Shown here piece by piece: positions 412-55,742 of a DNA stretch of 64,000 bases. The position numbers were made by a program, and so were the translations under genes. This stretch comes from Clostridiales bacterium (GTDB lineage Bacteria; Bacillota; Clostridia; Christensenellales; CAG-314), in contig JAFLVM010000001.1 of assembly GCA_022508305.1 (NCBI GenBank), positions 770,341-834,340 on the forward strand, written 5' to 3'. The notes beneath the pieces are model-generated. The model did no database searches. It saw only the letters and a list, made by a program, of their open reading frames with translations, and was not told the origin of the DNA. Each line of letters begins with the position of its first letter. Positions within the stretch are counted from its first letter, which is position 1.

Positions 412-450
412 GTACGAACTCACTTGTCAGTGGGTTCGTACAGTTTTATT
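412..450. terminator. Bidirectional rho-independent terminator
   Basis: 13-bp stem GTACGAACTCACT / AGTGGGTTCGTAC (412-441, loop tgtc), with an A-run upstream and AGTTTTATT downstream. Lies between convergent genes ending at 329 (+) and 490 (-). Confidence 0.75.
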
Positions 451-489: not shown

Positions 490-2871
490 TCAATTATTAT
501 TCGTTGAAACGGGGTTACATTCTATTATAAATTTGCCCAAATGCTCTATACAGTCGGACTTGTTGTTTTTCAACACATATTCGGTTGCAGTGGTATCAAT
601 CGAATATTTGCTCAATATGGCATCTTTAGGCAAGTTCCCGTTAAAAATAATTTTCCAATCTCCATCATGCTCGATTTTTACTACCCAGTCGTTGGATAAT
701 TTACACGGATGTGCAAATTCAATTTGATTACCACTGATTTTTAGATTTTTTTCATCTACTGTGATTTTGGAATTGTGTTTACTAAGATAATTACAAAGTG
801 CCAAATAAAATGGCTGATAGTGCATATTGTATATATTAAAATTCTGATCGGTGCATCTAATATCGTACACGTTATCGTCATCGCTAGCATATCCATATCT
901 TTTACGTCTTAAAACCAAAAACGTTGTAGAGTCCAAATCATAGAAAAATTCAGTATACTTTACTATATACCAAAGTATATTCTTTGAATTGGAAAAATCC
1001 TCATGAATCAGGCGTTCATTAAGAATTGTTTGTAGCACTTCATTAATGTCAAGTTGAGCGTTGTTGCTAATGTAATACTTGGCATAAAACTCATTGGCAA
1101 ACTTCTGAGCCGCAATGGATAAATCTGCCAAAGAACCTCTGTTGTCAGCAGTAAATACTTTATCGCCAAATCCATTCTCTGCTTCTTTAAGAAAATATTT
1201 ATGGCAGTACGCCGTTGCTTTGTCGACTTCCGAATTGTAATACAGTTGTCTTTTCCCCGACTGCATATTAGTTCCATCAAAAACGAGGTTGTTGAAGGAA
1301 CCATACTGCTCACCGGCATAACTTAAAATTATTCTTAAACACAAATTGATTGCTGTTTTATCTTGCAGGATACTATTTAATTCCTCGGCTTTGATAAATA
1401 TTTTCCCGTTTAGGAAAAAATTATGAATAGAACGATTTAATACAGTACTTTGTTCTAGTTTTTCTATCTCAGCTAGATCGTGATAGTGCAATTTTTCTCG
1501 TTCATATTGTAAACTATTATCGGTTGTACCCTTAATATACTCGTAAAAATCTATTCCGGAAGATGCGCAATATCCATCAATTAGTTTTTTAACGAGAGAT
1601 AAGCTTGAATGGATCCGTTTCCCGTCGATACTCGAATTGAATTGCCTTGTCTTGTTGTTGTACTCACGATTTGCATAAATTAGATTTTTTAAAACCCTGT
1701 AGAATTGATTGAATTCTTTATCTTTTTGCACACCGTTAAGCGCATACCAGTAGATAATTCCAAATAAAATTACCCTTTGATAATGGTAAAACTCTTTGAT
1801 ATCGTCAAAGTTTTTAGGCAACAAACTTTCTACCAAACAATCTTTGTCTTTCCATGTAGGGAATGTATCCAACGCGGCGCAAAGAATCTCTAGTAAACTT
1901 TCATCGGCAGCCAACATTTCAACTTCTTTTTTGTAGGAAGCGGTCAAGTCTTGTCTTTCCCATCTTTCGTCATATTCTTGAGAGCCGCAAACAGAGTTTG
2001 TGCATTTAATCATAAACATTAACAGCCTAAACATGTTTCTTTCTGCGCCATCTTTTCCATATTCCTGCCAAAAATAGTCGAGATATGCATTATCAATATT
2101 GGTTTGCCATCTTTTTATTGCGCTTTCCAACTTAATATTTTCCGATTCGTGTTTAAGTCTTTTGTCTAAAGCCGATTCTAATTCAGCTTTAAACAGGTCA
2201 AACCTAGATAGCCTCTTTCCCCTGGCGTTCATCTTTACAAACAAATCATCGGTTAAGCCGAATTTTTCGAGGTACAAACACCAGAAGGTAATATTATTTA
2301 GACGACTCCACAATGCGTGTTCAGTATCTTTAAATTCTAGATGAATTTTATCGAGCATAACCAGCATAGACTGAACGGTTGGGTCTTGGTCATAAGCGTG
2401 AAAATAAGAAGTCGCATTTTGAATCGCTTTCGAAAGATCTTCTATATTTGAAAAATCAAAGTCCATGTCGCAAAGTGCTAAACAAAATTCTTGGGCGGTG
2501 TCTCGCGTAGCATAAGAAAATTTCTTAAGCATTTCTCTATACGACGTGTCTTCGCATGGCGTATCCAAACTCTTTTCCTTGATGCCTACATACCAGTGCA
2601 ACAAGAACAAGGTTGTAAGTCTTTGTTGCCCATCTACAGGATAAAAAAAGCCATTTTCCAGTGACCCGTATATGTAGTCAAGTACAAGAGGTTTATCATT
2701 TTCAAGAGCCTTTTTTAACTGGTCAATGAAGTTTTCCCTTACCTCTTGATAGAGGGATTGTCCTATTGTGTCTATACGTCCTTGCGCGTAATCGCGTTGA
2801 ATGATTGGAATTACAATTTGTACGGAATCTTTTAATAGTTCTAAAAATGAAATTTGCTTTCCGCTTGCCAT
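490..2871 (-). CDS. DUF262 (ParB-like NTPase/nuclease superfamily) protein with a long uncharacterised C-terminal region, 793 aa
   Basis: N-terminal motifs IPIIQRDYAQGR and PVDGQQRLTTLFLLHWY are typical of DUF262/GmrS-like domains. I found no DUF1524/His-Me finger motif in the remaining ~550 aa. AT-rich; starts 1 nt after the upstream gene's stop. Confidence 0.75.
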   Translation of the reverse strand: MASGKQISFLELLKDSVQIVIPIIQRDYAQGRIDTIGQSLYQEVRENFIDQLKKALENDKPLVLDYIYGSLENGFFYPVDGQQRLTTLFLLHWYVGIKEKSLDTPCEDTSYREMLKKFSYATRDTAQEFCLALCDMDFDFSNIEDLSKAIQNATSYFHAYDQDPTVQSMLVMLDKIHLEFKDTEHALWSRLNNITFWCLYLEKFGLTDDLFVKMNARGKRLSRFDLFKAELESALDKRLKHESENIKLESAIKRWQTNIDNAYLDYFWQEYGKDGAERNMFRLLMFMIKCTNSVCGSQEYDERWERQDLTASYKKEVEMLAADESLLEILCAALDTFPTWKDKDCLVESLLPKNFDDIKEFYHYQRVILFGIIYWYALNGVQKDKEFNQFYRVLKNLIYANREYNNKTRQFNSSIDGKRIHSSLSLVKKLIDGYCASSGIDFYEYIKGTTDNSLQYEREKLHYHDLAEIEKLEQSTVLNRSIHNFFLNGKIFIKAEELNSILQDKTAINLCLRIILSYAGEQYGSFNNLVFDGTNMQSGKRQLYYNSEVDKATAYCHKYFLKEAENGFGDKVFTADNRGSLADLSIAAQKFANEFYAKYYISNNAQLDINEVLQTILNERLIHEDFSNSKNILWYIVKYTEFFYDLDSTTFLVLRRKRYGYASDDDNVYDIRCTDQNFNIYNMHYQPFYLALCNYLSKHNSKITVDEKNLKISGNQIEFAHPCKLSNDWVVKIEHDGDWKIIFNGNLPKDAILSKYSIDTTATEYVLKNNKSDCIEHLGKFIIECNPVSTNNN

Positions 2872-2872
2872 T

Positions 2873-4771
2873 TTAACCCTCCAAAAATGTCTTTAACATT
2901 TCGCACTGTTTTTTGTGATACACTTCAAAATCATTTTTGTCCCATTTTGTAAAGTCCAAAGTAAATTTTTGGGGTGAATACATTTTTAGGAATACGCGTT
3001 TGGTGGAATAGGGAATACCTCGCGATGGATCATCCAAAATAGGTAACAACTTCTCACGTTTTTCATAAAATGGAGAATTTCCCAAAGAAGAGTTGTCGTC
3101 GCTACTCAAAAGTGCAAGGTTGCCCATGCGATGCATATCTATTTCATCAAACCCATCTACTTCCTCGTCTATTCTTGTTGCAAGACGGAGAAAATCTTCT
3201 TCTTTAATTTGCGTGTTCATCAAATCGTCAATTGCTTGAATGATACTTTGATAATTTTGTTTAACTTTTTTATCCGAAATAGTTTTCATAGCTTCAGAGA
3301 TACGCAGCCTTTCCTTTTTCAAAAAGTCCAAGATATCTTCTGATGCGGCGAATTTGGAGTGCTGAGCTTTAATATGTTCTACACTCCATCCATGTTTGAC
3401 ATAAAAGTTGAATTTTCCACCTATTTGATTTAGTTCCGTAATATTGAAAAGCATTAATAGTTGCTCAATTACCTTGCGATCATCTTCGTAGTTTAATGTC
3501 GACAAATTACTCAGAGTTATCTTGGTACCCAATATATCCTTTTTTATTGTCTCAATCAAATATTGTACAAATTCGGAACGTGTTTTGTTTTGATAGTGTC
3601 CTATCAAAGAAGAAAGCAATTGCAAACGTTCTGTCGCGTTTTTTCCTTTGTAGGTCATTATAAACCCTATATAATTGTACGCTTCGTAACTTGCATACCA
3701 ATCTTGAATAGTTCTGTAAATTTTTCTCAAATCATCGAAGACGCTCTTTAAATATTTCTTCTTTCCATCAAGAGTTTGACCTTTTAATTTACTCTCATAG
3801 TATGAGAATAGTTTTAGTTCACCTTCTTGATTGTAATCTTTGTCGCCTTGCGTCACCGCAACCTTAATTAGAAAATCCATTCGAGGCGAAACGCGAGAAA
3901 AGTGATTGCCTGTTATAAATGCCCAAAGCTGATCGTTTTCCAGCGCATGTTGTATTTCATCCCAAAGCCTAGCATAACGTTCTTGTTCACGTTTTATTGA
4001 CGTGTTGTTCGGACGAAATTTTTCATCTGTATCGGGCGAGCATATCCTAGAGTTCAACAACATGGCTTTTACGAGTTCTGCATCTGTTAATGGTATTTTC
4101 CCGTTGTTAATGTTGCGAAAAACCAAGTAACAGTCTATGTTTTGGTCTGATGGTAATTCATACCAAATAATTTTTGTTTCCTGCTTCACCGTGGTTTGCA
4201 TCTGTGATTCTGCGGCCGAATCTTTTTTGACTTTATCTGTCAACCATTTTGTTACAATGTTATATGCCTCTACGAAATATTGTGCGTCTGCGATCTGAAA
4301 CGCTTCACTTGCATTAGTTGAACCTAGTGTTTCCAAGCAATGCTTACGAGCATAGTTATTTTCAGCATCTCTTTCAAATTCAATGTCGAAATACTGTGGG
4401 TTTCGCTCATAAAAACTTCGTAAAATAATATAAATCGTGGTCAATCTTTGTTGTCCATCAACCACCTCGTAATAGTTTTCGTCCGATTTATACTTATAGC
4501 TATCCCCCAAGCGTTTTTTTATTTCTTGCTCTGCGAGTTGCTTTACTATGATTGGCTGAAGACAGTAAAACTCACCCACTGTTGCATCTTTTTTTGATGC
4601 GTGAAATTCCCACAAGTCATCCAATAATGTTTCGATTTGCTTGGATTCCCAGCGATAGCCACGCTGATAAGAAGGAATCAAAAAACAATATTTTTTTCCA
4701 TTTTCACCAACGATAAGTTCATTGATGGATAAGCTTCTTAGATTTCTATTACTGGTATTTAATTCTTCCAA
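2873..4771 (-). CDS. GmrSD-family DUF262 + DUF1524 protein (putative type IV modification-dependent restriction endonuclease), 632 aa
   Basis: N-terminus IPSYQRGYRWE and VVDGQQRLTTIYIIL (DUF262). C-terminus WSVEHIKAQHS and HRMGNLALLSSDDNSSLGNSPFYEKR (DUF1524 His-Me-finger-like). TTG start preceded by AAAGGGGAG. Confidence 0.8.
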   Translation of the reverse strand: MEELNTSNRNLRSLSINELIVGENGKKYCFLIPSYQRGYRWESKQIETLLDDLWEFHASKKDATVGEFYCLQPIIVKQLAEQEIKKRLGDSYKYKSDENYYEVVDGQQRLTTIYIILRSFYERNPQYFDIEFERDAENNYARKHCLETLGSTNASEAFQIADAQYFVEAYNIVTKWLTDKVKKDSAAESQMQTTVKQETKIIWYELPSDQNIDCYLVFRNINNGKIPLTDAELVKAMLLNSRICSPDTDEKFRPNNTSIKREQERYARLWDEIQHALENDQLWAFITGNHFSRVSPRMDFLIKVAVTQGDKDYNQEGELKLFSYYESKLKGQTLDGKKKYLKSVFDDLRKIYRTIQDWYASYEAYNYIGFIMTYKGKNATERLQLLSSLIGHYQNKTRSEFVQYLIETIKKDILGTKITLSNLSTLNYEDDRKVIEQLLMLFNITELNQIGGKFNFYVKHGWSVEHIKAQHSKFAASEDILDFLKKERLRISEAMKTISDKKVKQNYQSIIQAIDDLMNTQIKEEDFLRLATRIDEEVDGFDEIDMHRMGNLALLSSDDNSSLGNSPFYEKREKLLPILDDPSRGIPYSTKRVFLKMYSPQKFTLDFTKWDKNDFEVYHKKQCEMLKTFLEG

Positions 4772-4848: not shown

Positions 4849-4880
4849 CATAAGAACACCCGATTTAGGGTGTTCTTATG
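4849..4880 (-). terminator. Strong hairpin just 3' of tRNA-Ser (terminator-like, no clear U-tract)
   Basis: 13-bp perfect stem CATAAGAACACCC / GGGTGTTCTTATG with a 6-nt loop, 10 nt downstream of the tRNA-Ser 3' end on the minus strand. The following sequence is not U-rich. Confidence 0.5.
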
Positions 4881-4890: not shown

Positions 4891-4979
4891 TGGCGGAGGC
4901 GGAGGGATTCGAACCCCCGTGGGCTTGCACCCAAACGGTTTTCAAGACCGCCTCGTTGTGACCGCTTCGATACGCCTCC
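4891..4979 (-). tRNA. tRNA-Ser (anticodon UGA), CCA encoded
   Basis: Minus-strand sequence GGAGGCGTATCGAAGCGGT...GGTCTTGAAAACC...GGGGGTTCGAATCCCTCCGCCTCCGCCA. It has a 7-bp acceptor stem, anticodon loop CT-TGA-AA, a long variable arm and a T-loop TTCGAAT. Confidence 0.93.
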
Positions 4980-5185: not shown

Positions 5186-5863
5186 TTACTCAACGGTATT
5201 AAACATACTTTCGATTGTGGCGGTGATAAAGTCCATATCGGCTGTGTCTAAGAAATAAAGATAGTATGTGTATCCTTCGTACACAAATTTTGTATTACAT
5301 TTATCTATATACGACTTGTAGAGGACTTCAACATCGTTTATCTTAATTGACTTTGGTTCCCCCCAATCGGTTTCAAGGGTTTCTACAATTATTTTGTCAT
5401 CTTTTTTTAGGACTGAGATTTCCACCGTATATCCTTCATTAAAAATTTTCTCTTGCATAAAAACAGTCGTTTTTGTATTTTCCACGTCGTAGTATCTTGT
5501 AGTTATACAATCGTCAGCTGTTTCATACCAATCAAGATATAGAACATGATCACCCAAACTTTGAATATAATCTTTAAGCGTATAATCAACAACTTCAGAT
5601 TGAATATTCATATCGTTATAACGCAATATAGTGTCATCACTCGGTTGCAAAACAATAGGTAAAACAACCGAAAGACTTATAACAAGGACCAACGCAACAG
5701 CAATAGACGAAAGCCTAATACTAAGTTGTTTACGCTTTTTTCTCAGTTGCGCTTGCTTAACGATATTTTCTTCAACCTGAACGTGAATACGGTCGTACAA
5801 AGAGTCAAACTCATCTTTATACTTTTCTTCGATTTGAAGAACTTCCTTATCTTTTTCTACCAT
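5186..5863 (-). CDS. Single-pass membrane protein, possible anti-sigma factor
   Basis: Charged N-terminus, one hydrophobic span (IAVALVLVISLSVVLPIVL) and an extracytoplasmic domain. It is the last gene of an operon led by a sigma-70-family gene. Function is inferred from context only. Confidence 0.45.
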   Translation of the reverse strand: MVEKDKEVLQIEEKYKDEFDSLYDRIHVQVEENIVKQAQLRKKRKQLSIRLSSIAVALVLVISLSVVLPIVLQPSDDTILRYNDMNIQSEVVDYTLKDYIQSLGDHVLYLDWYETADDCITTRYYDVENTKTTVFMQEKIFNEGYTVEISVLKKDDKIIVETLETDWGEPKSIKINDVEVLYKSYIDKCNTKFVYEGYTYYLYFLDTADMDFITATIESMFNTVE

Positions 5864-5871
5864 TGTTCTCC

Positions 5872-6684
5872 TTAGCCAACGTTGACAATATAGGCTGCTT
5901 CAAGATTTGATGAATTTATTCTGTAATAACCTGTTGTGGTCATTGGGTGTCCTGTTGCGACTTTAACAAAGCGTTCAGTAAGGAACAATCCCGATGCGTT
6001 GTAGTACTTCATTTCCAAATAGCCAAATGCAATCATAATGTGATTACCCGTTATTGTATATATATCAAAAACATCATGATCTGATTCTTCACTTATATTA
6101 TAAACATTTCCAGGTGTGATAAACAACACCATTACTTTGTTGGCATCAACAGCAGCTTTACAAGCGTCAAAGTTCATTGAACTACCGCTTTTTACGTTTT
6201 GATATGACAATGAGTAGTTTCGATTAGAAAAGTATGTTTGTAATCCACTCTTGAATTCTGCTTCACTCGTTCCGGAACCATTTACGTTGGTTTGCATTAA
6301 AGTATATAATTCTTTCATCACGGCAGGAACGTATGTTCCCTCTTGTATACGATATTTACCGTTTGATGTATAGTAAGAATCCCAACCTGGAATAAGTTCA
6401 GGATAATATTTATCGTAAAAAGCGACAATCTCAGAACCGGCTACTGCCCCACAAGAGTTAGTCAAATTAGCAGTAGCAGTGTATGTTGGCGCACCGCCGG
6501 CAGTTTGAACGAGTGTCATTTCTTTTGACGTGTAATATATTGTTTCGCTTGCGATAGACGATACAATTGGCGCGTCGGCGTATCTGATTTCCGTTTCTTC
6601 GGCTTGTATTGGCGACCATGCGCCGAACAGCGTAACGCCGGCAATCAGGACAAGTATAAGAGCAACATACTTTAGTTTTTTCAT
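5872..6684 (-). CDS. Secreted protein, possible papain-like (C39-like) cysteine peptidase
   Basis: Signal peptide MKKLKYVALILVLIAGVTLFGAWSPIQA. Cys-containing NSCGAVAG and His-containing GNHIMIAFGY motifs fit a Cys/His dyad. Family assignment is tentative. Confidence 0.4.
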   Translation of the reverse strand: MKKLKYVALILVLIAGVTLFGAWSPIQAEETEIRYADAPIVSSIASETIYYTSKEMTLVQTAGGAPTYTATANLTNSCGAVAGSEIVAFYDKYYPELIPGWDSYYTSNGKYRIQEGTYVPAVMKELYTLMQTNVNGSGTSEAEFKSGLQTYFSNRNYSLSYQNVKSGSSMNFDACKAAVDANKVMVLFITPGNVYNISEESDHDVFDIYTITGNHIMIAFGYLEMKYYNASGLFLTERFVKVATGHPMTTTGYYRINSSNLEAAYIVNVG

Positions 6685-6737
6685 AAAATTTCCCCTTTAT
6701 GTGTTTTCTTCCTTATACCTTTTGTGTGCAAAAAATG

Positions 6738-7274
6738 TTAAGTATTTGTTTTTTTATTTTTTACGACGTCTTTTATTTTTTTAATTTTTTGACACACGGC
6801 AGACCTGGACACGTCCATCATCTTGGCAATTTCCGATTGTGTTCTGCCTCCGCGGAAATGTAGCAATGCAACTTCAAGATAGGATTTGTCGAGATCTTTT
6901 AACATATATTCCAAATCGATCGTCGCATCAATTTCGGAATAAGGGTCAAAGTCGTCGGCTACGTACAAGTTTTCTAACGTTTCAACTGCAACGTATTTGG
7001 ATTCCTTTGTATTGATATCTTTTGCCGCATTTTCGATTATTTTCAAAATCCAACTGTACCCATTTCCCAAACGGTTAAATGAAGCAATACTGTTACTTAT
7101 TCTAATATAAGTTTCAGATAATACGTCTCTCCAAAGTGATTTGTCATACAAATAACGCATAGCATAACGAGCGAATATGCCCTTCATATCATCGTAGAAA
7201 TTGGCAAATTCATCTTTGTTTCCTTCCTGGAATGCTATAAGATATTTATTTGTGATTTCTCGGTACTGAGACAT
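6738..7274 (-). CDS. Sigma-70 family (ECF-like) RNA polymerase sigma factor
   Basis: 178 aa. Region-2-like GYSWILKIIENAAKD and a region-4 HTH RGGRTQSEIAKMMDVSRSAVCQKIKKIK. Confidence 0.8.
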   Translation of the reverse strand: MSQYREITNKYLIAFQEGNKDEFANFYDDMKGIFARYAMRYLYDKSLWRDVLSETYIRISNSIASFNRLGNGYSWILKIIENAAKDINTKESKYVAVETLENLYVADDFDPYSEIDATIDLEYMLKDLDKSYLEVALLHFRGGRTQSEIAKMMDVSRSAVCQKIKKIKDVVKNKKTNT

Positions 7275-7329
7275 GTACTGCGTTGCGCCCCTGTGTGTAA
7301 ACTTTGGTAAAGTGGTCGTTGATAATGGT

Positions 7330-7358
7330 ATTATAGTATTTTTTGCATAGTTTGTAAA
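7330..7358 (-). promoter_or_regulatory. Sigma-A-type promoter upstream of the sigma-factor gene
   Basis: Minus strand: TTTACA (7358-7353), 17-nt spacer, TATAAT (7335-7330), about 55 nt upstream of the ATG at 7274. Confidence 0.55.
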
Positions 7359-7410
7359 TTTTTTTGACGGAAAAATGTTGTTTTAGCGTGTTTTTGCCCG
7401 ATTTTGACGA

Positions 7411-7450
7411 AAAAAATGACGCAACTTGGGGTTGCTGCGTCATTATTTTT
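7411..7450. terminator. Bidirectional terminator-like hairpin
   Basis: AAAAAATGACGCAAC-ttgggg-TTGCTGCGTCATTATTTTT: a GC-rich stem flanked by A-run and T-run. Lies downstream of the ABC exporter operon on the minus strand. Confidence 0.65.
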
Positions 7451-7645: not shown

Positions 7646-9442
7646 TTACTTCAGCAGTTCGTACTGGCTGTTGTAGATTTTGGTGTAGAAGCCGTTACGT
7701 TCCATGAGTTCACGGTGCGTGCCCTGTTCCACCACCTCGCCATTGTTCACCACCAAAATGATGTCGGCGTTGACAATGGTAGAAAGTCGGTGCGCAATGA
7801 CAAAGCTCGTACGTCCTTGAAGCAGCTCGTCCATTGCCTGCTGAATGAGAATCTCCGTACGCGTATCGACGTTGCTGGTTGCTTCGTCCAAGATTAGCAT
7901 TTTGCGGTTAGCCAAGTAACTCCGCGCAATGGTAAGCAGCTGCTTTTGTCCGCTACTGATATTCGTACTTTCTTCGTTAATCACAGTGTCGTAGCCTTGC
8001 GGAAGGGTTGAAATAAAATGGTCGGCGTGCGCTTTTTTTGCCGCCTCTATCACCTCTTCTCGCGTGGCGTCCGCTTTGCCGTAAGCGATATTGTCGTACA
8101 CCGTGCCGTTGAACAGCCAAGTGTCCTGCAGCACCATTCCGAACATACCGCGCAGTTCCCCTCTGTCCATAGTGGAAACGTCCACTCCGTCAACGGTTAT
8201 TGTTCCGCTATCTACGTCGTAGAAACGCATTAGTAGGTTGACTATCGTCGTTTTGCCGCCGCCGGTAGGTCCGACTATTGCCACCTTTTGCCCTGCCTTG
8301 ACTGTAACGGTCAAATCCTTGATAATGGGGTTGACCTTGTCGTAGGAAAAGCTCACGTGGTCAAATACCACGCAGCCCTTGCCCTCATCAGGCGCAGAAT
8401 TTTCCGTATTTTCCACCATTTCCGGCATTTCAAGCAGGTTGTATACACGGTTTGCGCAAGCTAAAGTGTGTTGAATGGAGCCCATACCGTTGGCAATACT
8501 TTCAAGAGGTCCTGCAAACATTTTTGCAAACAAAATTATTTCCACCACGTCGCCGACGCTGACAACCTTGTTGCTTGCCAAAATTCCGCCCGCGATACAC
8601 ACCGCAACGTAGGCAATATTGTTAGTAAAGGCTATTATCGGCTGAATAAGTCCTGCCAAATAGTAGCCGCGATGCATCTTGGCGCGATAGGTTTCGGAAA
8701 TTTCGTCGCAAATCTTTTTTTGCCGTTCTTCGAGGTTAAACGCCTTTACCGTGTCAAAACCCGTGAAATCTTCCTCGATAAACGCGTACATGTCGCCGTT
8801 CACCTTGCGATATTCGTTCCAGCTCTTCTCACTCTTGGCTGAAATTACCGCAGCAAGCGCAATAGACAGCGGCACAAGTACTACAACCGCAGTTGCAAGC
8901 ACCCAGTGTATCGAATACATAAAGTAGGTTATGATAACGATGCGCACCAAACCGTCAATAAGCGTGTCGATGATGACGTAGATTGTGTTGGACATGTTGG
9001 ACACGTCGTTCATCATACGGGAAAGCAGTTCGCCGTTGGGAGTGGAATCTATGTAACTGACGGGCAAGCGTTGTAGCTTGTCGCTTATACGAATACGCAG
9101 TCCTTTGGTGAAGTAACGGGACGTTATGTTAGTTGTTAGCAAAACACGACTAGCCGAGAGTAACGCCGCGCCGCCGTACGCTGCAAGCAAAATCAGACAT
9201 AGCTCGAGCATACGCTGCATGTCGATTGGAACGCGCGTTTCGCCGTAGTCGTAAATCATGTCTGTGATACGGCTGACAACCTCGGGCGCAATTACTGACA
9301 AAAATACCGAGCCGATACACACCACGCCTGCAAGCGCAATGGCCCAAGCAATGGGTTTGATGTCGCGTAGTAGTTTGCCTACCGTGCGCCAAGCGGAATA
9401 TTCTTTTTTCTTATTCGTCGTCTTTGAGGGAGATTTACTCAT
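7646..9442 (-). CDS. ABC transporter permease/ATP-binding protein (exporter half-transporter, subunit 2)
   Basis: Six-TM N-terminal domain followed by an NBD: Walker A GPTGGGKTT, signature SSGQKQLLTIAR, Walker B MLILDEATS. I chose the ATG at 9442 (GGGAGGTGATATCA-ATG), overlapping the upstream gene by 8 nt, instead of the track start at 9562. Confidence 0.9.
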   Translation of the reverse strand: MSKSPSKTTNKKKEYSAWRTVGKLLRDIKPIAWAIALAGVVCIGSVFLSVIAPEVVSRITDMIYDYGETRVPIDMQRMLELCLILLAAYGGAALLSASRVLLTTNITSRYFTKGLRIRISDKLQRLPVSYIDSTPNGELLSRMMNDVSNMSNTIYVIIDTLIDGLVRIVIITYFMYSIHWVLATAVVVLVPLSIALAAVISAKSEKSWNEYRKVNGDMYAFIEEDFTGFDTVKAFNLEERQKKICDEISETYRAKMHRGYYLAGLIQPIIAFTNNIAYVAVCIAGGILASNKVVSVGDVVEIILFAKMFAGPLESIANGMGSIQHTLACANRVYNLLEMPEMVENTENSAPDEGKGCVVFDHVSFSYDKVNPIIKDLTVTVKAGQKVAIVGPTGGGKTTIVNLLMRFYDVDSGTITVDGVDVSTMDRGELRGMFGMVLQDTWLFNGTVYDNIAYGKADATREEVIEAAKKAHADHFISTLPQGYDTVINEESTNISSGQKQLLTIARSYLANRKMLILDEATSNVDTRTEILIQQAMDELLQGRTSFVIAHRLSTIVNADIILVVNNGEVVEQGTHRELMERNGFYTKIYNSQYELLK

Positions 9443-11156
9443 TGATATCACCTCCCATTTGACTTTGATAAATTTCGCGATAGGTCGGGCAGTTTTCCAA
9501 TAGCTCCTTGTGAGTTCCCACGCCCACCACGCTGCCTTGATCAAGTACGTACACCTTGTCACAGCGCATAGCCGTCGCCGCCCGCTGCGTAACGATGATT
9601 TGCGTTTTGTTTTTCAAGTATTGATTGAGAGCCTTTCTTAGGTTGGCTTCCGTGAGGTAGTCCAAAGCGGAAAAGCTGTCGTCAAATACGTACACCGAGG
9701 CAGGCTTCAAAATAGTCCGCGCAATGTTGATACGCTGCTTTTGTCCGCCGGAAACGTTGTTGCCCGCTTGCGTCAGCTTGTAGTTGATACCTTCTTCCTT
9801 GCTGCCCACGAACTCATCCATTTGAGCAATTTTCAACACCTCTACAACCTGTTCGTCGGTAGCGTCTCGGTTGCCCATTCGAACGTTGTCGGCAATAGTG
9901 CCTTCGAATATCATACTCTTTTGCAAAGCTATCGCAACGTTGTCGCGGACGGTTGCGGGTGTAAGCTCTTCGTAGTCCTTTCCGCCAAAAGTTCGAACGC
10001 CATCTTTTGCAGGGTAAAAATCCATAAGCAGCTTGACGAGCGTCGTTTTGCCGCTACCCGTGCCGCCAATTATTCCCACAATTTCGCCCTGTTTAACATC
10101 GAAAGTTACGTCGTTTAACGAGTTTACTTGCGCATTTTGATAAGCAAAGCTAACCTTCTCGAAACTAATGTTACCTTCCAGTTCGTAGCCCAGTGACGCG
10201 TCCTCGCGAGTGTTTTGCGTGTCCAAAATTGCGCCGACACGCTTCAGACTTACCTTGATGTGAGGAATAAAAGAAATCGTCCAAGAAAGTATCAGTACGG
10301 CGTTTGCAATAAGCGCAATGTACTGAATAGTCGCCAAAATGTCGCCCGCTTGTAATGCCGTGTCCGACTGCAAACGAACTGCTCCAACGTAGATGATTGC
10401 AACCGTCGCAAGGTTGAGTAGCAGCGACGCAATGGGGCTTACAAGTCCGCTTACTGTGTTGGCTGTAACGAAGCTGTTGCACATTTCGCTTGTGGCACGC
10501 GCCGCGCGCTCATGTTCGTATTTTTCCTTGTCAAAGGCGCGTACAACTCTGATACCCGACAGTCGCTCGCGAACAACCCTGTTTTGTACGTCGGTGTACT
10601 CCTCGCCGCGTTGCCAATGTTTTTCCAAGCTCCCTGTGATAAGACTTGAAACTGTCAGTACCACCACGGACACGCCAAGCAGAATCAAAGGCAACACCCA
10701 GTCGCCGGCGAACGACAGGACGATTCCGCCGATGAACATAATGGGGGCGGTGATAAACACGTAGGGCAGCTGCGACACCGTTTCCTCAATCCAGTTAACG
10801 TCGTCGGTGGTACGCGTGATAAGACTGCCCGTGCCCAATTCGGAAAACTGCTCGAAGCTAAGAGAATTGACCTTGTTAAATATCTGCTTGCGAATGTCCA
10901 CTGCAAGGCGAGCGTTAAATTTGCTGCTTACGGAATTGGTAATCAAAGCGCAAGCAAGAGCCGAAAGCGCCAAAGCAATCATAATTGCGCCGTAGGTGAG
11001 AATTACAGTCACGTTCTGTTCGCGAATGCCGTCGTCCACTATTTTACCCATGATAAAGGGCAAAAACAGCGCGCACGACGTTTGCAAAGCGTAGAGGAAC
11101 ATTAGTAAAATTACTGTCTTTGTATAGGGTTTTAGAAATTTGAATAGATACTTCAT
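9435..11156 (-). CDS. ABC transporter permease/ATP-binding protein (exporter half-transporter, subunit 1)
   Basis: TM domain followed by an NBD: Walker A GGTGSGKTT, signature VSGGQKQRINIAR, Walker B VYVFDDSFS. Paired with the downstream gene in the manner of heterodimeric multidrug-type exporters. Confidence 0.9.
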   Translation of the reverse strand: MKYLFKFLKPYTKTVILLMFLYALQTSCALFLPFIMGKIVDDGIREQNVTVILTYGAIMIALALSALACALITNSVSSKFNARLAVDIRKQIFNKVNSLSFEQFSELGTGSLITRTTDDVNWIEETVSQLPYVFITAPIMFIGGIVLSFAGDWVLPLILLGVSVVVLTVSSLITGSLEKHWQRGEEYTDVQNRVVRERLSGIRVVRAFDKEKYEHERAARATSEMCNSFVTANTVSGLVSPIASLLLNLATVAIIYVGAVRLQSDTALQAGDILATIQYIALIANAVLILSWTISFIPHIKVSLKRVGAILDTQNTREDASLGYELEGNISFEKVSFAYQNAQVNSLNDVTFDVKQGEIVGIIGGTGSGKTTLVKLLMDFYPAKDGVRTFGGKDYEELTPATVRDNVAIALQKSMIFEGTIADNVRMGNRDATDEQVVEVLKIAQMDEFVGSKEEGINYKLTQAGNNVSGGQKQRINIARTILKPASVYVFDDSFSALDYLTEANLRKALNQYLKNKTQIIVTQRAATAMRCDKVYVLDQGSVVGVGTHKELLENCPTYREIYQSQMGGDINE

Positions 11157-11340
11157 ATATAATCACAACTCGTTTAGTTATTTTGCGGTATCACCTTAGC
11201 AATACCACTTTACCGTATTCTTGCAAATAAAACAATGGACAGGTTGGCGAATAATGCTCAAATTGCTAAACTATTTTTTTAGTTTTAAATCAACCGCTGT
11301 TTTAGTTAGCAAAAAATTATTGTTAATTTGTTCAAAACAC

Positions 11341-11372
11341 GAAAAAAGCGCGCTTCCCAAACGAAAGCGCGC
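11341..11372 (-). terminator. Rho-independent terminator between the 24-aa ORF and the ABC exporter operon
   Basis: Minus strand: GCGCGCTT-tcgtttggg-AAGCGCGC (8-bp GC-rich stem) followed by TTTTTTCG. Confidence 0.75.
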
Positions 11373-11401
11373 GTAAATTACACTACACAGTATTGCCGAG
11401 C

Positions 11402-11476
11402 TTAGTTTTCGGCAAAAGGTAGGTGATTGCAACTTCCGTTTGTAGTCATTTTGTATTGTATTCTGTTGTTGGTCAT
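11402..11476 (-). CDS. Small ORF, 24 aa (MTNNRIQYKMTTNGSCNHLPFAEN); possible leader peptide or small protein
   Basis: Not in the supplied ORF track (too short). Perfect SD AAGGAGGTGA lies 8 nt before the ATG (11476). A hairpin TTGCCGA/TCGGCAA (11393-11415) spans its stop codon, and a terminator follows about 30 nt later. Confidence 0.35.
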   Translation of the reverse strand: MTNNRIQYKMTTNGSCNHLPFAEN

Positions 11477-11533
11477 TGCTTTCACCTCCTTTTTATTTAT
11501 TTTTCTTTATGTTAGCACATCATTGTGGCTCCG

Positions 11534-12103
11534 TCAAGCAATTGACGCTACAAAACCTGCCAAAGCCTCGGGAGCTGCTCCCTGCTGTAACCCTTCGAGC
11601 AATTTTCCTGCGATACCGTTGATAATCCAATCACCGAAGAAATTGTTGCTGTAGATATGTTCGCCAACCCAACTCGTTTGGAAAGCCTCGCCTGCAAAAG
11701 ATTTAATTAGCGGCAAAAATTCCTCGCCCGTATTGTTGAACAGTGAGAATATGACCGCAAACACAAGGTACACCACGGCTAAACCCAACACGCCGCCCAA
11801 AATTCGGTCAAGTAGACCGATGATTTTGACTTTTTTGAGCAGTTTGGTAATCAAAAGCGCAAGCAAAGCGTAAGCAACTGTTAGCAAAATTACCGTTGCA
11901 ATCATTGCCACAACGTTGCGCGTGCCGTCGCTCATAGAGGTGTTGATAAGCCAGCTTTGCACGTACGGTTCAACGGTCGCTGTGAGAGTAGCGACAAGAA
12001 TAACGCCAACGATGGTAAGTATTTGTCTAATTAGACCCTTGAATACACCCAAGATAAAGGCAACCGCAACAAGCGCCAAAAAGACGTAGTCTAATACGTT
12101 CAT
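11534..12103 (-). CDS. cvpA: CvpA family membrane protein
   Basis: 189 aa with about four TM helices. N-terminus MNVLDYVFLALVAVAFILGVFKGLIRQILTIVGVILV matches the CvpA (colicin V production) family pattern. Confidence 0.65.
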   Translation of the reverse strand: MNVLDYVFLALVAVAFILGVFKGLIRQILTIVGVILVATLTATVEPYVQSWLINTSMSDGTRNVVAMIATVILLTVAYALLALLITKLLKKVKIIGLLDRILGGVLGLAVVYLVFAVIFSLFNNTGEEFLPLIKSFAGEAFQTSWVGEHIYSNNFFGDWIINGIAGKLLEGLQQGAAPEALAGFVASIA

Positions 12104-12228
12104 AATTACTCCTTACGTCCAATTATGTCCACGGTTTATATTTTTGTCAACAAAATTGGCGGAATATACAAGAATTGCATCGTTTTTCAAAGCATATATA
12201 AAGCTTCTACAAAGACGAGGGTGTTCCA

Positions 12229-13926
12229 CTACATTTTTTCGGGGGATTCGATGCCAAGTAAGGCAAGTCCTTTTTTGAGGACGGTGCCCGTTGCCTCTAC
12301 AACTTGCAAACGCGCGTTTTGTTCCGCTACGTTGTCGGAAATAACGCGGTGCTCGATGTAAAACCTGTTGAACGCCTGCGCAATATCTATTAGCAACGCC
12401 GATACAATGCTCGGTTCGTACTTGAAAGCAGCGTCCTTGACCGCCTGCGGGAACGCGCCGAGCAGCTTGCACAATCTGAGAGTTTCCGAATTGTTGAGAA
12501 CCTCGAAGTCGGGAGCAATCTTGCAATTTCGCGATTGACCTGCCTTTTCAATGAGCGAATTGCACCTTGCGGCTGTGTACTGAAGATAAGGCGCAGTTTC
12601 GCCGTCAAAGTTCAGTACGCGGTCGAAGGTAAAGGTGATGTCCTTGATTTTGCTGTTTTCAAGCGCCGAGAACAGCACCGCGCCAACGCCAACTTGCTCG
12701 GCAACCTTTTCCTTGTTGGGCAAATTGGGGTTCTTCTCTGTGATGATTTCCAGCGACTTACTCACAGCCTTGTCAATGACGTCGCGGAGCAGCACCACGT
12801 TACCTTTGCGGGTGGACATGGAGCCTTCCTCAAGACTTACCATGCCGAAAGCCACGTGAACCAAATCCTTAGCCCACTCGAATCCTGCCAGCTCCAACAC
12901 CTTGAAAAATTGCTTGAAGTGCAAATTTTGTTGATACGCTACTACGTACAGGCACTTATCGAAGTCGTACTCCTGTTTGCGCCAAATTGCAGCTGCAATG
13001 TCGCGGGTCGCGTACAGGCTGCTACCGTCGGACTTCACAAGCAGGCACGGAGGCATGTTGTAGTCCTTCAAGTCCACTACTTGCGCGCCTTGACTTTCGG
13101 TAATCAGTCCCTTGTCACGCAGCATTTGTAGCGGCTTGTCCATCTTGTCATTGAAGAAGCTTTCGCCGTTAAAACTGTCGAACTTGACGTTTAGACGCTT
13201 GTAGATGTCCATAACTTCGGCAAGCGTAATTTTTTTGAAAAATTCGAAAAGCTCCTGCGCCTCTTTGTCGCCCTTTTCGATACGTACAAACCACTCGCGC
13301 GCCTGTTCCGTCAGCTCGGGGTGATCCACTTCCTCTTGGTGGAATTTGACGTAAACGCGTTGCAATTCCTGAACGCCCAACTTTTCGACGGTTGCTCTGT
13401 CCGTCCACAGCTTAAAGGCAACTATCATCTTGCCAAACTGCGTTCCGTAGTCGCCAAGGTGGTTGATACCTACAACGTTGTAGCCAAGCGCCGTGTACAG
13501 CTTGTAGAGGCTACTTCCTATTGCCGTTGTGGAAAGGTGTCCTATGTGGAAGGATTTACAGATGTTAACCGAGCTGTAGTCGATACACACCGTTTTGCCG
13601 TTACCTACCGTGTCGTTGCCGTATTTTACGCCCTTTTTAGTCACTTCGTCCAAAACGGACTTGGTGTATTCCAAGCGGTTGACGAAAAAGTTAAGGTAAC
13701 CGTTGACCGCTTCCACCTTGACAACGTGTTCGTCAAGCTGTATTTCGCTTGCCAATTTTTCGGCAATCTGAACGGGTGACATGCGCATTTCCCTCGCCAA
13801 CTTGAAGCAAGGAAAAGCGTAGTCGCCAAAAGAGTCGTCCGCCGTTTCGGTAATTAACGACTCAAGCTCCGCCGTACTTAGCGGAGCTTTAATCTTATTT
13901 GCAATAATTTGTTTGTAATTTAACAT
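12229..13926 (-). CDS. argS: Arginine--tRNA ligase
   Basis: Class I HIGH motif (SFHIGHLST), ArgRS-like N-terminal and anticodon-binding regions, C-terminal ...GIESPEKM. Start placed at ATG 13926 (MLNYKQII...), 1 nt after the gyrA stop, not the track start at 13986. Confidence 0.92.
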   Translation of the reverse strand: MLNYKQIIANKIKAPLSTAELESLITETADDSFGDYAFPCFKLAREMRMSPVQIAEKLASEIQLDEHVVKVEAVNGYLNFFVNRLEYTKSVLDEVTKKGVKYGNDTVGNGKTVCIDYSSVNICKSFHIGHLSTTAIGSSLYKLYTALGYNVVGINHLGDYGTQFGKMIVAFKLWTDRATVEKLGVQELQRVYVKFHQEEVDHPELTEQAREWFVRIEKGDKEAQELFEFFKKITLAEVMDIYKRLNVKFDSFNGESFFNDKMDKPLQMLRDKGLITESQGAQVVDLKDYNMPPCLLVKSDGSSLYATRDIAAAIWRKQEYDFDKCLYVVAYQQNLHFKQFFKVLELAGFEWAKDLVHVAFGMVSLEEGSMSTRKGNVVLLRDVIDKAVSKSLEIITEKNPNLPNKEKVAEQVGVGAVLFSALENSKIKDITFTFDRVLNFDGETAPYLQYTAARCNSLIEKAGQSRNCKIAPDFEVLNNSETLRLCKLLGAFPQAVKDAAFKYEPSIVSALLIDIAQAFNRFYIEHRVISDNVAEQNARLQVVEATGTVLKKGLALLGIESPEKM

Positions 13927-44797: not shown

Positions 44798-44874
44798 GTT
44801 CCCGTGGCGCAATTGGATAACGCAATCGCCTCCTAAGCGATAGATTGGCTGTTCGAACCAGCTCGGGAACGCCA
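44798..44874 (+). tRNA. tRNA-Arg (anticodon CCU), CCA encoded
   Basis: GTTCCCG acceptor pairs with CGGGAAC. Anticodon stem ATCGC/GCGAT with loop CT-CCT-AA. T-arm GGCTG-TTCGAAC-CAGCT. 77 nt. Confidence 0.92.
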
Positions 44875-44907
44875 AAAAACCGCAAGATATTAAATCTTGC
44901 GGTTTTT
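44875..44907 (+). terminator. Rho-independent terminator of tRNA-Arg
   Basis: ACCGCAAGAT-attaa-ATCTTGCGGT (10-bp perfect stem) followed by TTTTT. Confidence 0.85.
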
Positions 44908-45141
44908 CATAATGTTTACACAATCCTCCGTCGTCAAACGGACACAATAACAAAACTTTCGCGGAGTTTTGTTAATTTTTCGCATAGGGTTTGATGAAAT
45001 AAAAGTTTGCCCCCAAATCGCAAATTTGTAAATTTTACTTAACAATAACCAATTTACTTCAGTATATAAATAAAATCCTATTTGTGGACATATTTTCTCG
45101 GCATCTGATGCCACAACAAAAAATATTTTAAGAGGTTTAAT

Positions 45142-45795
45142 GTGTACAAAAGAATTTCAAAAAAACAAAGTTCTATAGCGCGGCAAAGAGCAACGAAAAT
45201 TATTCAAGATGTGCGAAAAATATTAAAGACAAAATACGTTTTCGCGCATAGATTGGTTGGTTCCGGTGCTTGGGGAACAATGATTGAAGATGAAAACGGC
45301 GAATATGATTTGGACTATCAATTATTATTGACAGTCAATTCCCATGTTTATAAACAATCCAAAGACTTTCCTCCCCCTACTGAAATCAAACAAGACTTTT
45401 TGTCGGCATTTGAGCAGGTGAAAAAAGGTCAGGAAACTTTTCAAAACTCCACTACCGCCATAACTCTAATAAACAAGGATAGCAAGCCTTACCATATTGA
45501 TTTTGTTATTATCAAAACTTTTCCCCAAAATGATTTTATAATACGAAGAAACAACAAAAAAGAGACACCCTCGGAAAATGAGTTTACTTGGAATGAATTG
45601 CCGCAATGGAATGATGCCTATGACTATTTTAGAGAATTGTCACCTACGGAAAAGCAAAACTTGATAGAAAATAAAATTATTCCTGCGAAACAAAAGGAAA
45701 AAGCGAAATCGGAAAGCGATCCCTCAAAAATATCGTCTTCTGCACTGTTTGTAAGAGAGGTTAACAATTATAGATGTCAGCAAAAGAAGAAATAA
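45142..45795 (+). CDS. Pol-beta-superfamily nucleotidyltransferase (MNT/SMODS-like), 217 aa
   Basis: GTG start after AAGAGG. LVGSGAWGT (G-S at 45259-45264), EYDLDY (D-x-D at 45307-45315) and a third Asp in YHIDFVII (45499-45501) give the NTase-fold triad. AT-rich. Confidence 0.65.
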   Translation: MYKRISKKQSSIARQRATKIIQDVRKILKTKYVFAHRLVGSGAWGTMIEDENGEYDLDYQLLLTVNSHVYKQSKDFPPPTEIKQDFLSAFEQVKKGQETFQNSTTAITLINKDSKPYHIDFVIIKTFPQNDFIIRRNNKKETPSENEFTWNELPQWNDAYDYFRELSPTEKQNLIENKIIPAKQKEKAKSESDPSKISSSALFVREVNNYRCQQKKK

Positions 45796-46340: not shown

Positions 46341-46488
46341 AAACCAAACGAACATGAAGTGCCCATCTACTTTATTAACATTAGATAACTCAAACGATAA
46401 TTATAAAGAGCAGACGACATTTTGGAAAAGCAATTACTGATTTTTGCTGCACTTAAAATATTAAACAATAAAGGATAAACTATTTGCT

Positions 46489-54321: not shown

Positions 54322-54397
54322 CGAGGTGTAGCGCAGATGGTAGCGCGCTTGGTTCGGGACCAAGAGGCCGTGGGTTCAAATCCCGCCACTTCGACCA
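54322..54397 (+). tRNA. tRNA-Pro (anticodon CGG), CCA encoded
   Basis: Acceptor CGAGGTG/CACTTCG. D-stem GCGC/GCGC. Anticodon stem CTTGG/CCAAG with loop TT-CGG-GA. T-arm GTGGG-TTCAAAT-CCCGC. 76 nt. Confidence 0.92.
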
Positions 54398-54401
54398 CAA
54401 A

Positions 54402-54509: not shown

Positions 54510-54534
54510 TTAATCTTCGCTTATAATTTTCGTA

Positions 54535-55702: not shown

Positions 55703-55742
55703 CGTGTTTAACATATTGTAAGATTAATTTTGTTGTCGTTTA

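What the first reader, a model, noticed from the sequence alone, without database searches (positions are those of the whole stretch)
490..4771. Two translationally coupled DUF262 proteins (GmrSD-like enzyme plus a DUF262-only partner) in an AT-rich island next to tRNA-Ser
Seen: two minus-strand ORFs are separated by a single nucleotide (stop at 2873, next start at 2871). The island is bounded by the tRNA-Ser hairpin at 4849-4880 and a bidirectional terminator at 412-450, and is clearly more AT-rich than the flanks. The upstream protein (632 aa) has DUF262 motifs (QRGYRWE, DGQQRLTT) plus DUF1524-like WSVEHIKAQH / GNLALL...N...GN. The downstream protein (793 aa) has its own DUF262 N-terminus (QRDYAQGR, DGQQRLTT). 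Its ~550-aa C-terminal region shows no nuclease motif that I can find. Established: DUF262+DUF1524 fusions (GmrSD, BrxU, SspE-like) are NTP-dependent type IV restriction enzymes against modified phage DNA. Inference: the second, nuclease-less DUF262 paralogue could be a specificity or sensor subunit. It could also broaden the range of recognised modifications, making this a two-component variant rather than the usual single-polypeptide enzyme.
Basis: partly seen in the sequence, partly recalled or inferred. Interest (0 to 1): 0.6.

Follow-up and report, generated by a model that had tools for sequence, protein, structure and literature searches.

The report
GrwAB-type two-protein modified-DNA restriction system

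Summary
Two minus-strand genes (A, 2873-4771, 632 aa; B, 490-2871, 793 aa) are separated by one nucleotide, and a GGAGGG ribosome-binding site for B lies inside the end of A. A has DUF262 plus a His-Me nuclease (H466, N551, N560). B has only a DUF262 N-terminus. Its remaining ~560 aa show no nuclease by Pfam, profile comparison, conserved-residue inspection or fold search.

The pair is a conserved module. In 78 of 79 loci with enough upstream DNA, spread across many phyla, an A-like gene directly abuts a B-like gene in the same order. The two proteins co-diverge.

This architecture is already published as GrwAB (V. cholerae, Nat Microbiol 2025). There, both proteins are required and the system restricts phages carrying glucosyl-hmC or 7-deazaguanine DNA. 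Window A and B match V. cholerae GrwA and GrwB directly (E 2e-44 and 9e-49). They do not match the other two-protein system, TgvAB.

What this analysis adds is modest:
- B's C-terminal region diverges much faster than the rest of the module.
- It is confined to GrwB-like proteins.
- It folds confidently into a structure with no Foldseek match in the PDB or the viral set.

Verdict: new member of a known kind. Its function here has not been tested.

The parts
2873..4771 (-). grwA-like gene (632 aa). It is a single-chain GmrSD-type enzyme: DUF262 NTPase/sensor domain, helical linker and His-Me (DUF1524) nuclease.
   Evidence: ORF. Pfam GmrSD_N 6e-33 and GmrSD_C 3.9e-5. BLASTP to V. cholerae GrwA residues 1-399: 30% identity over 429 columns, E 2e-44. 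The family HMMs score VcGrwA at 178 + 74 bits.
4058..4699 (-). DUF262 domain of A (residues 25-238), with QR (Q36 R37), DGQQR (105-109) and FxxxN (F218...N222).
   Evidence: Pfam stretch. These residues are invariant in 51 homologues.
2897..3409 (-). His-Me / DUF1524 nuclease region of A (about residues 455-625). WSVEH466 and GN551LALL...N560 are separated by an ~85-aa helical insert between the His and the first Asn.
   Evidence: H466, N551 and N560 are invariant. The H-to-N-to-N spacing is 85 and 9 residues, against 90 and 9 in GrwA, where H431, N521 and N530 are essential for defence (PMC12137116).
2869..2882 (-). Coupling junction: SD GGAGGG (2882-2877), A stop TAA (2875-2873), one spacer base (2872), B start ATG (2871-2869).
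   Evidence: Sequence. Estimated junctions in 82 related pairs (B starts approximate) mostly lie within about 20 nt of A's stop; the commonest is a 4-nt overlap, 20 of 82.
490..2871 (-). grwB-like gene (793 aa): GrwB-type DUF262 domain followed by a long C-terminal region of unknown function with no nuclease motif.
   Evidence: ORF. Pfam GmrSD_N only, 1.1e-21. BLASTP to V. cholerae GrwB: 42% identity over 249 columns, E 9e-49. The B_N HMM scores VcGrwB at 226 bits, against 16-25 bits for TgvA, TgvB and GrwA.
2179..2841 (-). DUF262 domain of B (residues 11-231), with QR (Q25 R26), DGQQR (80-84) and FxxxN (F211...N215).
   Evidence: Pfam stretch. These residues are invariant in 49 homologues.
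490..1686 (-). C-terminal half of B (residues 396-793). It is a fast-diverging module specific to GrwB-like proteins, with conserved motifs YxVKYxEFF, HYNPFY, LSNGW and DCIE.
   Evidence: AF2 model with pLDDT 91 and pTM 0.90. No Foldseek match in the PDB (best E 2.5) or among viral structures (best E 1.8). No invariant His. Only 63 clusters match among 1.84 billion representatives.
412..441 (.). Bidirectional intrinsic terminator closing the operon: 13-bp stem with T-runs on both strands.
4849..4880 (-). Perfect 12-bp hairpin between tRNA-Ser and the start of gene A. It is probably the tRNA's terminator or processing stem.
   Evidence: Sequence (ATAAGAACACCC-TAAATC-GGGTGTTCTTAT).
4891..4979 (-). 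tRNA-Ser(tga), the upstream neighbour. A consensus sigma-70 promoter lies at 5022-4994.
   Evidence: ARAGORN result. Promoter matches 12 of 12 positions and has a TG extension.

Best explanation
The two genes form a GrwAB-family two-protein, modification-dependent (type IV) restriction system.

**Shown here**
- Gene A encodes a GmrSD-type enzyme with an intact DUF262 NTPase/sensor domain and an intact His-Me nuclease.
- Gene B encodes a second DUF262 protein of the GrwB subtype with no nuclease.
- The genes are arranged for translational coupling.
- The pair is inherited and co-diverges as one unit across many bacterial phyla.
- Both proteins are sequence homologues of V. cholerae GrwA and GrwB.

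**Inferred from the published GrwAB experiments**
- A and B act together, probably as a complex.
- Both DUF262 NTP-binding sites are needed to license A's nuclease.
- The nuclease cuts incoming phage DNA that carries hypermodified bases (glucosyl-/arabinosyl-hmC or 7-deazaguanine in the V. cholerae system). Unmodified host DNA is spared.

**Inferred from the divergence pattern**
- B's rapidly evolving C-terminal region is the part most likely to determine what is recognised, or to evade phage inhibitors.
- The modification spectrum of this Clostridia version may therefore differ from that of the V. cholerae system.
For: **Domains and motifs**
- Searches give the domain hits and the invariant motif residues.

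**The pair is a conserved module**
- In closer relatives (50%, 43% and 34% identical B proteins), an A-like gene always lies directly upstream. The other neighbours differ: WYL/DUF2779, AAA-FtsH-like, type I and type II RM.
- Of the 80 loci from the species-representative genome scan, 71 have at least 1.5 kb of upstream DNA. Adding 7 loci of closer relatives and the window gives 79 informative loci.
- In 78 of these 79, a DUF1524-bearing A-like ORF abuts the B-like gene in the same order. The exception, L060, has frameshifted A fragments in the same place.
- Estimated gene junctions mostly lie within about 20 nt of A's stop, the commonest being a 4-nt overlap.
- Pairwise identities of A and of B's N-terminal domain correlate at r = 0.61. 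This is as strong as the correlation between two halves of A (0.64). None of 500 label permutations reached it.

**Direct link to GrwAB**
- Window A against VcGrwA: E 2e-44 over 429 columns.
- Window B against VcGrwB: E 9e-49 at 42% identity.
- The family HMMs separate GrwA and GrwB cleanly from TgvA and TgvB.
- The H...N...N spacing in A (85 and 9 residues) mirrors GrwA (90 and 9 residues).

**Published function (PMC12137116)**
- Both genes are required for defence.
- GrwA R81A, H431A, N521A and N530A, and GrwB R86A, each abolish defence.
- Phage escapers map to the DpdA modification enzyme.
- The authors' own homologue table includes Clostridia (Roseburia intestinalis). That pair matches the window pair at E 3e-47 and 1e-51.
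Against: - No experiment exists for this locus, and activity, targets and complex formation are all inferred.
- Only the first ~399 aa of V. cholerae GrwA and GrwB were available. Homology of A's nuclease domain and of B's C-terminal ~400 aa to the prototypes could therefore not be tested directly.
- Beyond residue ~240, window B shows only a weak profile match to VcGrwB (B_mid E 1e-4).
- A's Pfam GmrSD_C hit is marginal (24.0 against a 23.0-bit cut-off) and covers only the distal half of the model.
- The host is an uncultured Clostridiales MAG. Whether phages with such DNA modifications infect it is unknown.
Confidence: 0.85

Rival explanations
1. These are two independent single-chain GmrSD-type restriction enzymes that happen to be neighbours, each acting alone on its own class of modified DNA.
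For: Both proteins have intact DUF262 motifs. Machnicka et al. 2015 noted that DUF262 genes often neighbour GmrSD genes.
Against: - B has no nuclease. There is no Pfam DUF1524/HNH hit.
- Profile-profile alignment to the A family stops at residue ~131.
- B's C-terminal region has no invariant His and no His-Me fold match.
- The strict order and abutting or overlapping junctions in 78 of 79 loci, together with co-divergence, argue for one unit.
Confidence: 0.03
2. The pair belongs to the TgvAB family, the V. cholerae VPI-2 two-protein GmrSD-like system embedded in a type I RM operon.
For: The overall logic is the same: a DUF262-only protein plus a DUF262+DUF1524 protein, both required (PMC11411939 and PMC11014532).
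Against: - Gene order is reversed. In TgvAB the DUF262-only gene comes first.
- The window-B HMM scores TgvA at only 16 bits, against 226 bits for GrwB.
- The window-A HMMs score TgvB at 57 bits with no linker match, against 178 + 74 bits for GrwA.
- No type I RM genes flank the pair in the window.
Confidence: 0.03
3. A is the complete enzyme. B is not a recognition subunit but a regulator or guard. It might keep A inactive until infection, or act as a decoy or sensor for phage anti-restriction proteins such as IPI*-like inhibitors.
For: - The TgvAB and GrwAB authors raise this possibility.
- B's post-DUF262 region evolves much faster than A. Only 47% of pairs are BLAST-detectable, against 100% for the other regions. 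That is the pattern expected for a surface in an arms race with phage proteins.
Against: - GrwB's DGQQR arginine (R86) is needed for defence, and B's NTPase motifs are invariant. B is therefore an active NTPase partner and not merely a decoy.
- Nothing here distinguishes DNA recognition from inhibitor sensing.
Confidence: 0.25
4. The pair is a phosphorothioate- or other host-modification-linked sensor of the SspE/DndI type, working with a self-modification system.
For: The closest solved structures by sequence or fold are SspE (6jiv) and DndI (9jfl). PADLOC SspE models hit A's N-terminus.
Against: - These hits cover only the shared DUF262 core.
- No dnd or ssp genes lie near the pair in the window. 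The neighbours are tRNA-Ser, a PG-binding protein, a sigma factor and an ABC transporter.
- No dnd or ssp genes appear among the Pfam-annotated neighbours of three closer relatives. Neighbours in the 80 scan loci were not annotated.
Confidence: 0.04

Closest known systems
GrwAB (V. cholerae WASA-lineage VSP-II; Nat Microbiol 2025, PMC12137116)
   Same: - Same gene order and architecture: gene 1 is DUF262 + linker + DUF1524, and gene 2 is DUF262 + a long C-terminal region of unknown domains.
- Direct sequence homology for both proteins (E 2e-44 and 9e-49).
- Same QR / DGQQR / FxxxN motifs in both proteins.
- Same H...N...N nuclease triad with a long insert between the His and the first Asn.
   Different: - Only 30% (A) and 42% (B N-domain) identity.
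- B's region after residue ~240 is barely similar to the available part of VcGrwB (weak profile hit only).
- The host is a Firmicutes MAG.
- The pair sits alone beside tRNA-Ser, not next to a Shedu gene in a pandemic island.
TgvAB (V. cholerae VPI-2; PMC11411939, PMC11014532)
   Same: A two-protein GmrSD-like type IV system. One partner has only DUF262, the other has DUF262+DUF1524, and both are required.
   Different: - Opposite gene order.
- TgvA and TgvB score only 16-57 bits on the window-family HMMs.
- TgvB's H-to-N spacing is 31 residues, against 85 here.
- TgvAB is embedded in a type I RM operon.
Single-chain GmrSD / BrxU / HEC-05, HEC-06
   Same: Protein A has the same domain plan (DUF262 NTPase/sensor, helical linker, His-Me nuclease). 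It also hits PADLOC HEC-06 models at 3e-19.
   Different: Those enzymes work as single polypeptides. Here A is always accompanied by, and co-diverges with, a second DUF262 protein.
SspE / DndI (phosphorothioate-sensing DUF262 enzymes; PDB 6jiv, 9jfl)
   Same: They share the DUF262 core. These are the only solved structures detected by sequence or fold.
   Different: They depend on a host PT-modification system, which is absent here. Similarity is limited to the N-terminal ~100-130 residues.

Membership tests
GrwAB | Two adjacent co-oriented genes: first DUF262+DUF1524, second DUF262 plus a long C-terminal extension | tested here: met
   The same order is seen in 78 of 79 related loci.
GrwAB | First protein homologous to V. 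cholerae GrwA | tested here: met
   BLASTP gives 30% identity over 429 columns, E 2e-44. A_N scores 178 bits and A_mid 74 bits on VcGrwA, against 57 and 0 on TgvB. Only GrwA residues 1-399 were available.
GrwAB | Second protein has the GrwB-type DUF262 domain | tested here: met
   BLASTP gives 42% identity over 249 columns, E 9e-49. The B_N HMM scores VcGrwB at 226 bits, against TgvA 16, TgvB 20 and GrwA 25.
GrwAB | QR, DGQQR and FxxxN motifs present in both DUF262 domains | tested here: met
   In A: Q36 R37, D105-R109, F218/N222. In B: Q25 R26, D80-R84, F211/N215. All are invariant in the family alignments.
GrwAB | His-Me nuclease triad (H, N, N) in the first protein only | tested here: met
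   In A, H466, N551 and N560 are invariant. B has no invariant His after residue 235, and H483 is variable.
GrwAB | C-terminal 'multiple domains of unknown function' homologous to those of V. cholerae GrwB | tested here: inconclusive
   Only VcGrwB residues 1-399 were accessible. The linker profile gives a weak hit (E 1e-4). The last ~400 aa could not be compared. Across 72 family members the C-terminal regions are connected by single linkage, but only 47% of pairs are BLAST-detectable.
GrwAB | Both proteins required for defence; defence targets phages with hypermodified DNA | not testable with these tools
   This needs phage challenge of clones. It is published only for the V. cholerae system.
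TgvAB | DUF262-only gene (tgvA) precedes the DUF262+DUF1524 gene (tgvB) | tested here: not met
   The order is reversed in the window.
TgvAB | Sequence homology to TgvA and TgvB beyond the generic DUF262 core | tested here: not met
   TgvA scores 16 bits on B_N, and TgvB scores 57 bits on A_N with no A_mid match. BLASTP E-values are 5e-3 and 2e-7, limited to the DGQQR region.
Single-chain GmrSD (Eco94GmrSD, BrxU) | DUF262 and DUF1524 on one polypeptide | tested here: met
   Protein A hits Pfam PF03235 at 6e-33 and PF07510 at 3.9e-5, above the gathering score.
Single-chain GmrSD (Eco94GmrSD, BrxU) | Functions autonomously as a single protein | not testable with these tools
   The obligate genomic pairing and the GrwA-alone null phenotype in V. 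cholerae argue against autonomy, but this was not tested for this locus.

The most novel reading that the evidence does not exclude
The ~400-560 aa C-terminal region of GrwB-type proteins may be a fast-evolving specificity or counter-inhibitor module. In the window protein (residues 396-793) it folds confidently with no Foldseek match in the PDB or viral set. Different GrwB C-termini, including this Clostridia version, could then re-target the same conserved GrwA nuclease to different DNA hypermodifications. That would resemble the way HsdS variants re-target type I enzymes.
Probability: 0.3. Interest if true: 0.55.

Novelty: new member of a known kind. Interest (0 to 1): 0.25.

Why it matters
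The finding matters only modestly.
- It places a divergent GrwAB-type module in an uncultured Clostridiales genome.
- It shows, on a sample of 72-79 loci from many phyla, that the A-to-B pairing is essentially invariant and co-diverging.
- It shows that GrwB's C-terminal region is the variable part of the system.

That last point gives a concrete handle on an open question the GrwAB and TgvAB authors themselves raise: why does a complete GmrSD-like enzyme need a second DUF262 protein? C-terminal swaps between homologues are the obvious experiment. It does not reveal a new kind of system.

Tried and rejected
**B as a degenerate copy of A.** hhalign of the two family profiles aligns only residues ~4-131. 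Rejected.

**A cryptic HNH in B.** I considered 'IH483N484FF...N488...N499', which sits on a small predicted beta-beta-alpha element. H483 is replaced by Y, Q, T, G, N, S, R or D in homologues. Rejected.

**Fold assignment of B.**
- The full-length model (pLDDT 90.9) matched only DndI, through the DUF262 part.
- The C-terminal-only model (pLDDT 91, pTM 0.90) gave no match in the PDB (best E 2.5) or the viral set (best E 1.8).

**Sequence searches of B.** The B profile against PDB sequences gave nothing beyond SspE at E 0.09. NCBIfam gave no hits.

**Island boundaries.** No att-like direct repeats flank the pair. tRNA adjacency is not a family feature: a tRNA lies within 6 kb in only 8 of 60 loci.

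**Short hits to the C-terminal profile.** The 300-390 aa hits looked at first like stand-alone domains. They carry the upstream 'RNLL...R' motif, have no Pfam domains, and at least one is an evident fragment (it lacks a start Met), so they look like N-terminally truncated GrwB-like ORFs.

**Access to prototype sequences.** The PMC copy of the GrwAB supplementary table was truncated. The bioRxiv copy supplied only the first ~399 residues of each protein.

Full report
**Observation.**
The two minus-strand ORFs exist exactly as described. A is 2873-4771 (632 aa, TTG start) and B is 490-2871 (793 aa, ATG start). On the minus strand the junction reads GGAGGG TTAAA ATG. A's TAA stop is at 2875-2873, one spacer base is at 2872, and B's ATG is at 2871. 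A Shine-Dalgarno sequence lies 5 nt upstream, inside the end of A. A's TTG start is preceded by GGGGAG.

Three details need correcting:
- tRNA-Ser(tga) is at 4891-4979 and is driven by a perfect sigma-70 promoter.
- The terminator is at 412-441, with T-runs on both strands.
- The AT-rich zone (GC 0.33-0.38, against about 0.46-0.52) is real but runs on to about 7500, past the tRNA.

No att-like repeat flanks the pair.

**What the proteins are.**
A hits Pfam GmrSD_N (6e-33) and, marginally, GmrSD_C (24.0 bits against a 23.0-bit cut-off). B hits GmrSD_N only (1.1e-21). NCBIfam has nothing for either protein. PADLOC 2023 gives only generic GmrSD-like and SspE-like N-terminal hits.

In alignments of 51 A-homologues and 49 B-homologues, the key residues are invariant:
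- QR, DGQQR and FxxxN are invariant in both proteins.
- H466, N551 and N560 are invariant in A.

B's remaining ~560 residues contain no nuclease by any test I could run:
- Profile-profile comparison of the two families aligns only residues ~4-131.
- No His is invariant. The one HNH-looking stretch has a variable His.
- The B profile finds nothing in PDB sequences beyond SspE's DUF262.
- A confident AF2 model of full-length B (pLDDT 90.9) matches only DndI, through DUF262.
- A confident model of residues 396-793 alone (pLDDT 91, pTM 0.90) has no Foldseek match in the PDB or the viral set.

**Is the pair a unit?**
For three progressively more distant B-homologues (50%, 43% and 34% identity), an A-like gene is always the immediate upstream neighbour. 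The other neighbours differ: WYL + DUF2779, AAA/FtsH-like genes, and type I and II RM.

A scan of species-representative genomes returned 80 loci. They come from Campylobacterota, Bacteroidota, Chlorobiota, Spirochaetota, Actinomycetota, Pseudomonadota, Bacillota and others. I scored the ORFs in these loci with HMMs built from the window families:
- Among 79 loci with at least 1.5 kb of upstream DNA (71 scan loci, 7 loci of closer relatives and the window), 78 have a DUF1524-bearing A-like ORF abutting the B-like gene in the same order.
- The exception, L060, has frameshifted A fragments in the same position.
- Estimated junctions (B starts are approximate) mostly lie within about 20 nt of A's stop. 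The commonest is a 4-nt overlap (20 of 82). The window has +1.

Pairwise identities of A and of B's DUF262 domain correlate at r = 0.61. That is as strong as the correlation between two halves of A (0.64). None of 500 permutations reached it. The second refutation criterion is not met either.

**Comparison with what is known.**
Two two-protein GmrSD-like systems have been published from V. cholerae.

*TgvAB* (PMC11411939, PMC11014532) has the DUF262-only gene first and lies inside a type I RM operon.

*GrwAB* (PMC12137116) has the architecture and order seen here:
- GrwA is DUF262 + linker + DUF1524.
- Both genes are required.
- GrwA R81A, H431A, N521A and N530A, and GrwB R86A, each abolish defence.
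- The system restricts Tevenvirinae (sugar-hmC) and Queuovirinae (7-deazaguanine).
- Escapers map to DpdA.
- Homologues occur in about 1% of genomes.

I recovered the first ~399 residues of GrwA, GrwB, TgvA and TgvB from the preprints' supplementary tables. The comparisons are as follows:

| Comparison | Result |
|---|---|
| Window A vs VcGrwA (BLASTP) | 30% identity over 429 columns, E 2e-44 |
| Window B vs VcGrwB (BLASTP) | 42% identity over 249 columns, E 9e-49 |
| B-family N-domain HMM | GrwB 226 bits; TgvA 16, TgvB 20, GrwA 25 |
| A-family HMMs (N-domain + linker) | GrwA 178 + 74 bits; TgvB 57 + 0 |

The nuclease triad spacing in A (85 and 9 residues) mirrors GrwA (90 and 9). TgvB's first two catalytic residues are 31 apart. 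The authors' own hit list includes a Clostridia pair (Roseburia intestinalis), which matches the window pair at E 3e-47 and 1e-51. The window pair is therefore a GrwAB-family member, not a TgvAB member.

**How it most likely works.**
- *Shown here:* intact catalytic motifs in both proteins, a coupled operon, obligate pairing and co-divergence.
- *Inferred from the GrwAB experiments:* A and B act together, probably as a complex. Both NTP sites are needed to license A's His-Me nuclease against phage DNA carrying hypermodified bases.
- *Not known:* which modifications this Clostridia version recognises, and what B contributes.

**What this analysis adds.**
I ran all-against-all BLASTP on 72 loci:
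- 100% of pairs are detectably similar for A's DUF262 domain, for the rest of A, and for B's DUF262 domain.
- Only 47% of pairs are detectable for B's post-DUF262 region, and only 37% with at least 50% coverage.
- The B C-terminal regions nonetheless remain connected by single linkage.

So the region is homologous across the family but diverges much faster than the rest of the module.

A profile of window B residues 396-793 finds only 63 clusters among 1.84 billion representatives. The hits of about 650 aa or more carry it at their C-terminal end, and the two I inspected (P0257, P0261) have a GrwB-type DUF262 N-terminus. The shorter hits appear to be truncated ORFs. This pattern fits either a specificity module or a surface engaged in an arms race with phage inhibitors. 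It does not discriminate between the two.

**Limits.**
- There is no functional test of this locus.
- Only partial prototype sequences were available.
- There was no multimer prediction.

**Verdict.**
The two-component interpretation is correct in substance but anticipated by the literature. This is a new, divergent member of a known kind, and interest is low to moderate.

Noticed in passing
window 44798-48714: A second AT-rich patch (GC 0.32-0.40) lies directly after tRNA-Arg(cct) at 44798-44874. It carries a 741-aa AAA_13 protein (46489-48714, +) that matches PADLOC candidate system PDC-S06 at E 1e-220. It also carries two short overlapping ORFs (45142-45795 and 45774-46340) with weak oligonucleotide-cyclase (2.6e-11) and Abi_2 (2e-4) hits. 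These may be a decayed CBASS-like or Abi gene.
   Followed up: partly
window 54322-56411: A third AT-rich patch (GC 0.36) lies directly after tRNA-Pro(cgg) at 54322-54397. It encodes a DUF4238 protein (54535-55446, -; Pfam 3.9e-38; weak PADLOC DUF4238-Pers hit). Together with the finding, that makes three tRNA-adjacent AT-rich islets in 64 kb, two of them carrying recognised or candidate defence genes.
   Followed up: partly
window 5186-7443: The AT-rich zone of the finding continues beyond tRNA-Ser. It covers an ECF-like sigma factor (6738-7274, -; Sigma70_r2 and r4) and two ORFs with no Pfam match (5186-5863 and 5872-6684, -). The latter has a signal-peptide-like N-terminus. GC rises to ~0.5 only at the ABC transporter gene (7646-9562).
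   Followed up: partly
L002 1758-1832 and 11572-11646: In Empedobacter falsenii the GrwAB-like pair lies between two tRNA-Met(cat) genes 9.8 kb apart. This looks like an island integrated at a tRNA with a duplicated target. Across 60 loci a tRNA lies within 6 kb in only 8.
   Followed up: no
L081-L084 (about 1000-4100 and 8400-13600 in locus coordinates): The closest relatives of the window pair sit in a recurring neighbourhood: a DUF2779 protein and a WYL-domain regulator upstream, and an AAA ATPase plus an AAA/Peptidase_M41 (FtsH-like) pair downstream. This may be another defence module. None of these genes is present in the window.
   Followed up: no
window 490-1160 (B residues ~570-793): The most C-terminal ~200 aa of B is the best-conserved part of the otherwise fast-diverging region. 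The motifs YxVKYxEFF, HYNPFY, LSNGW and DCIE recur as W(R/Q)YYFIKY, HINPY and DR(I/V)E in distant GrwB-like proteins (P0257, P0261).
   Followed up: partly
plasmid records H1-H15: GrwB-like genes occur on 18 PLSDB plasmids, including Chryseobacterium, Bacillus cereus, Rhodococcus, Aliarcobacter and Bartonella. Three of the plasmids are predicted conjugative. This is consistent with horizontal spread of the module.
   Followed up: no
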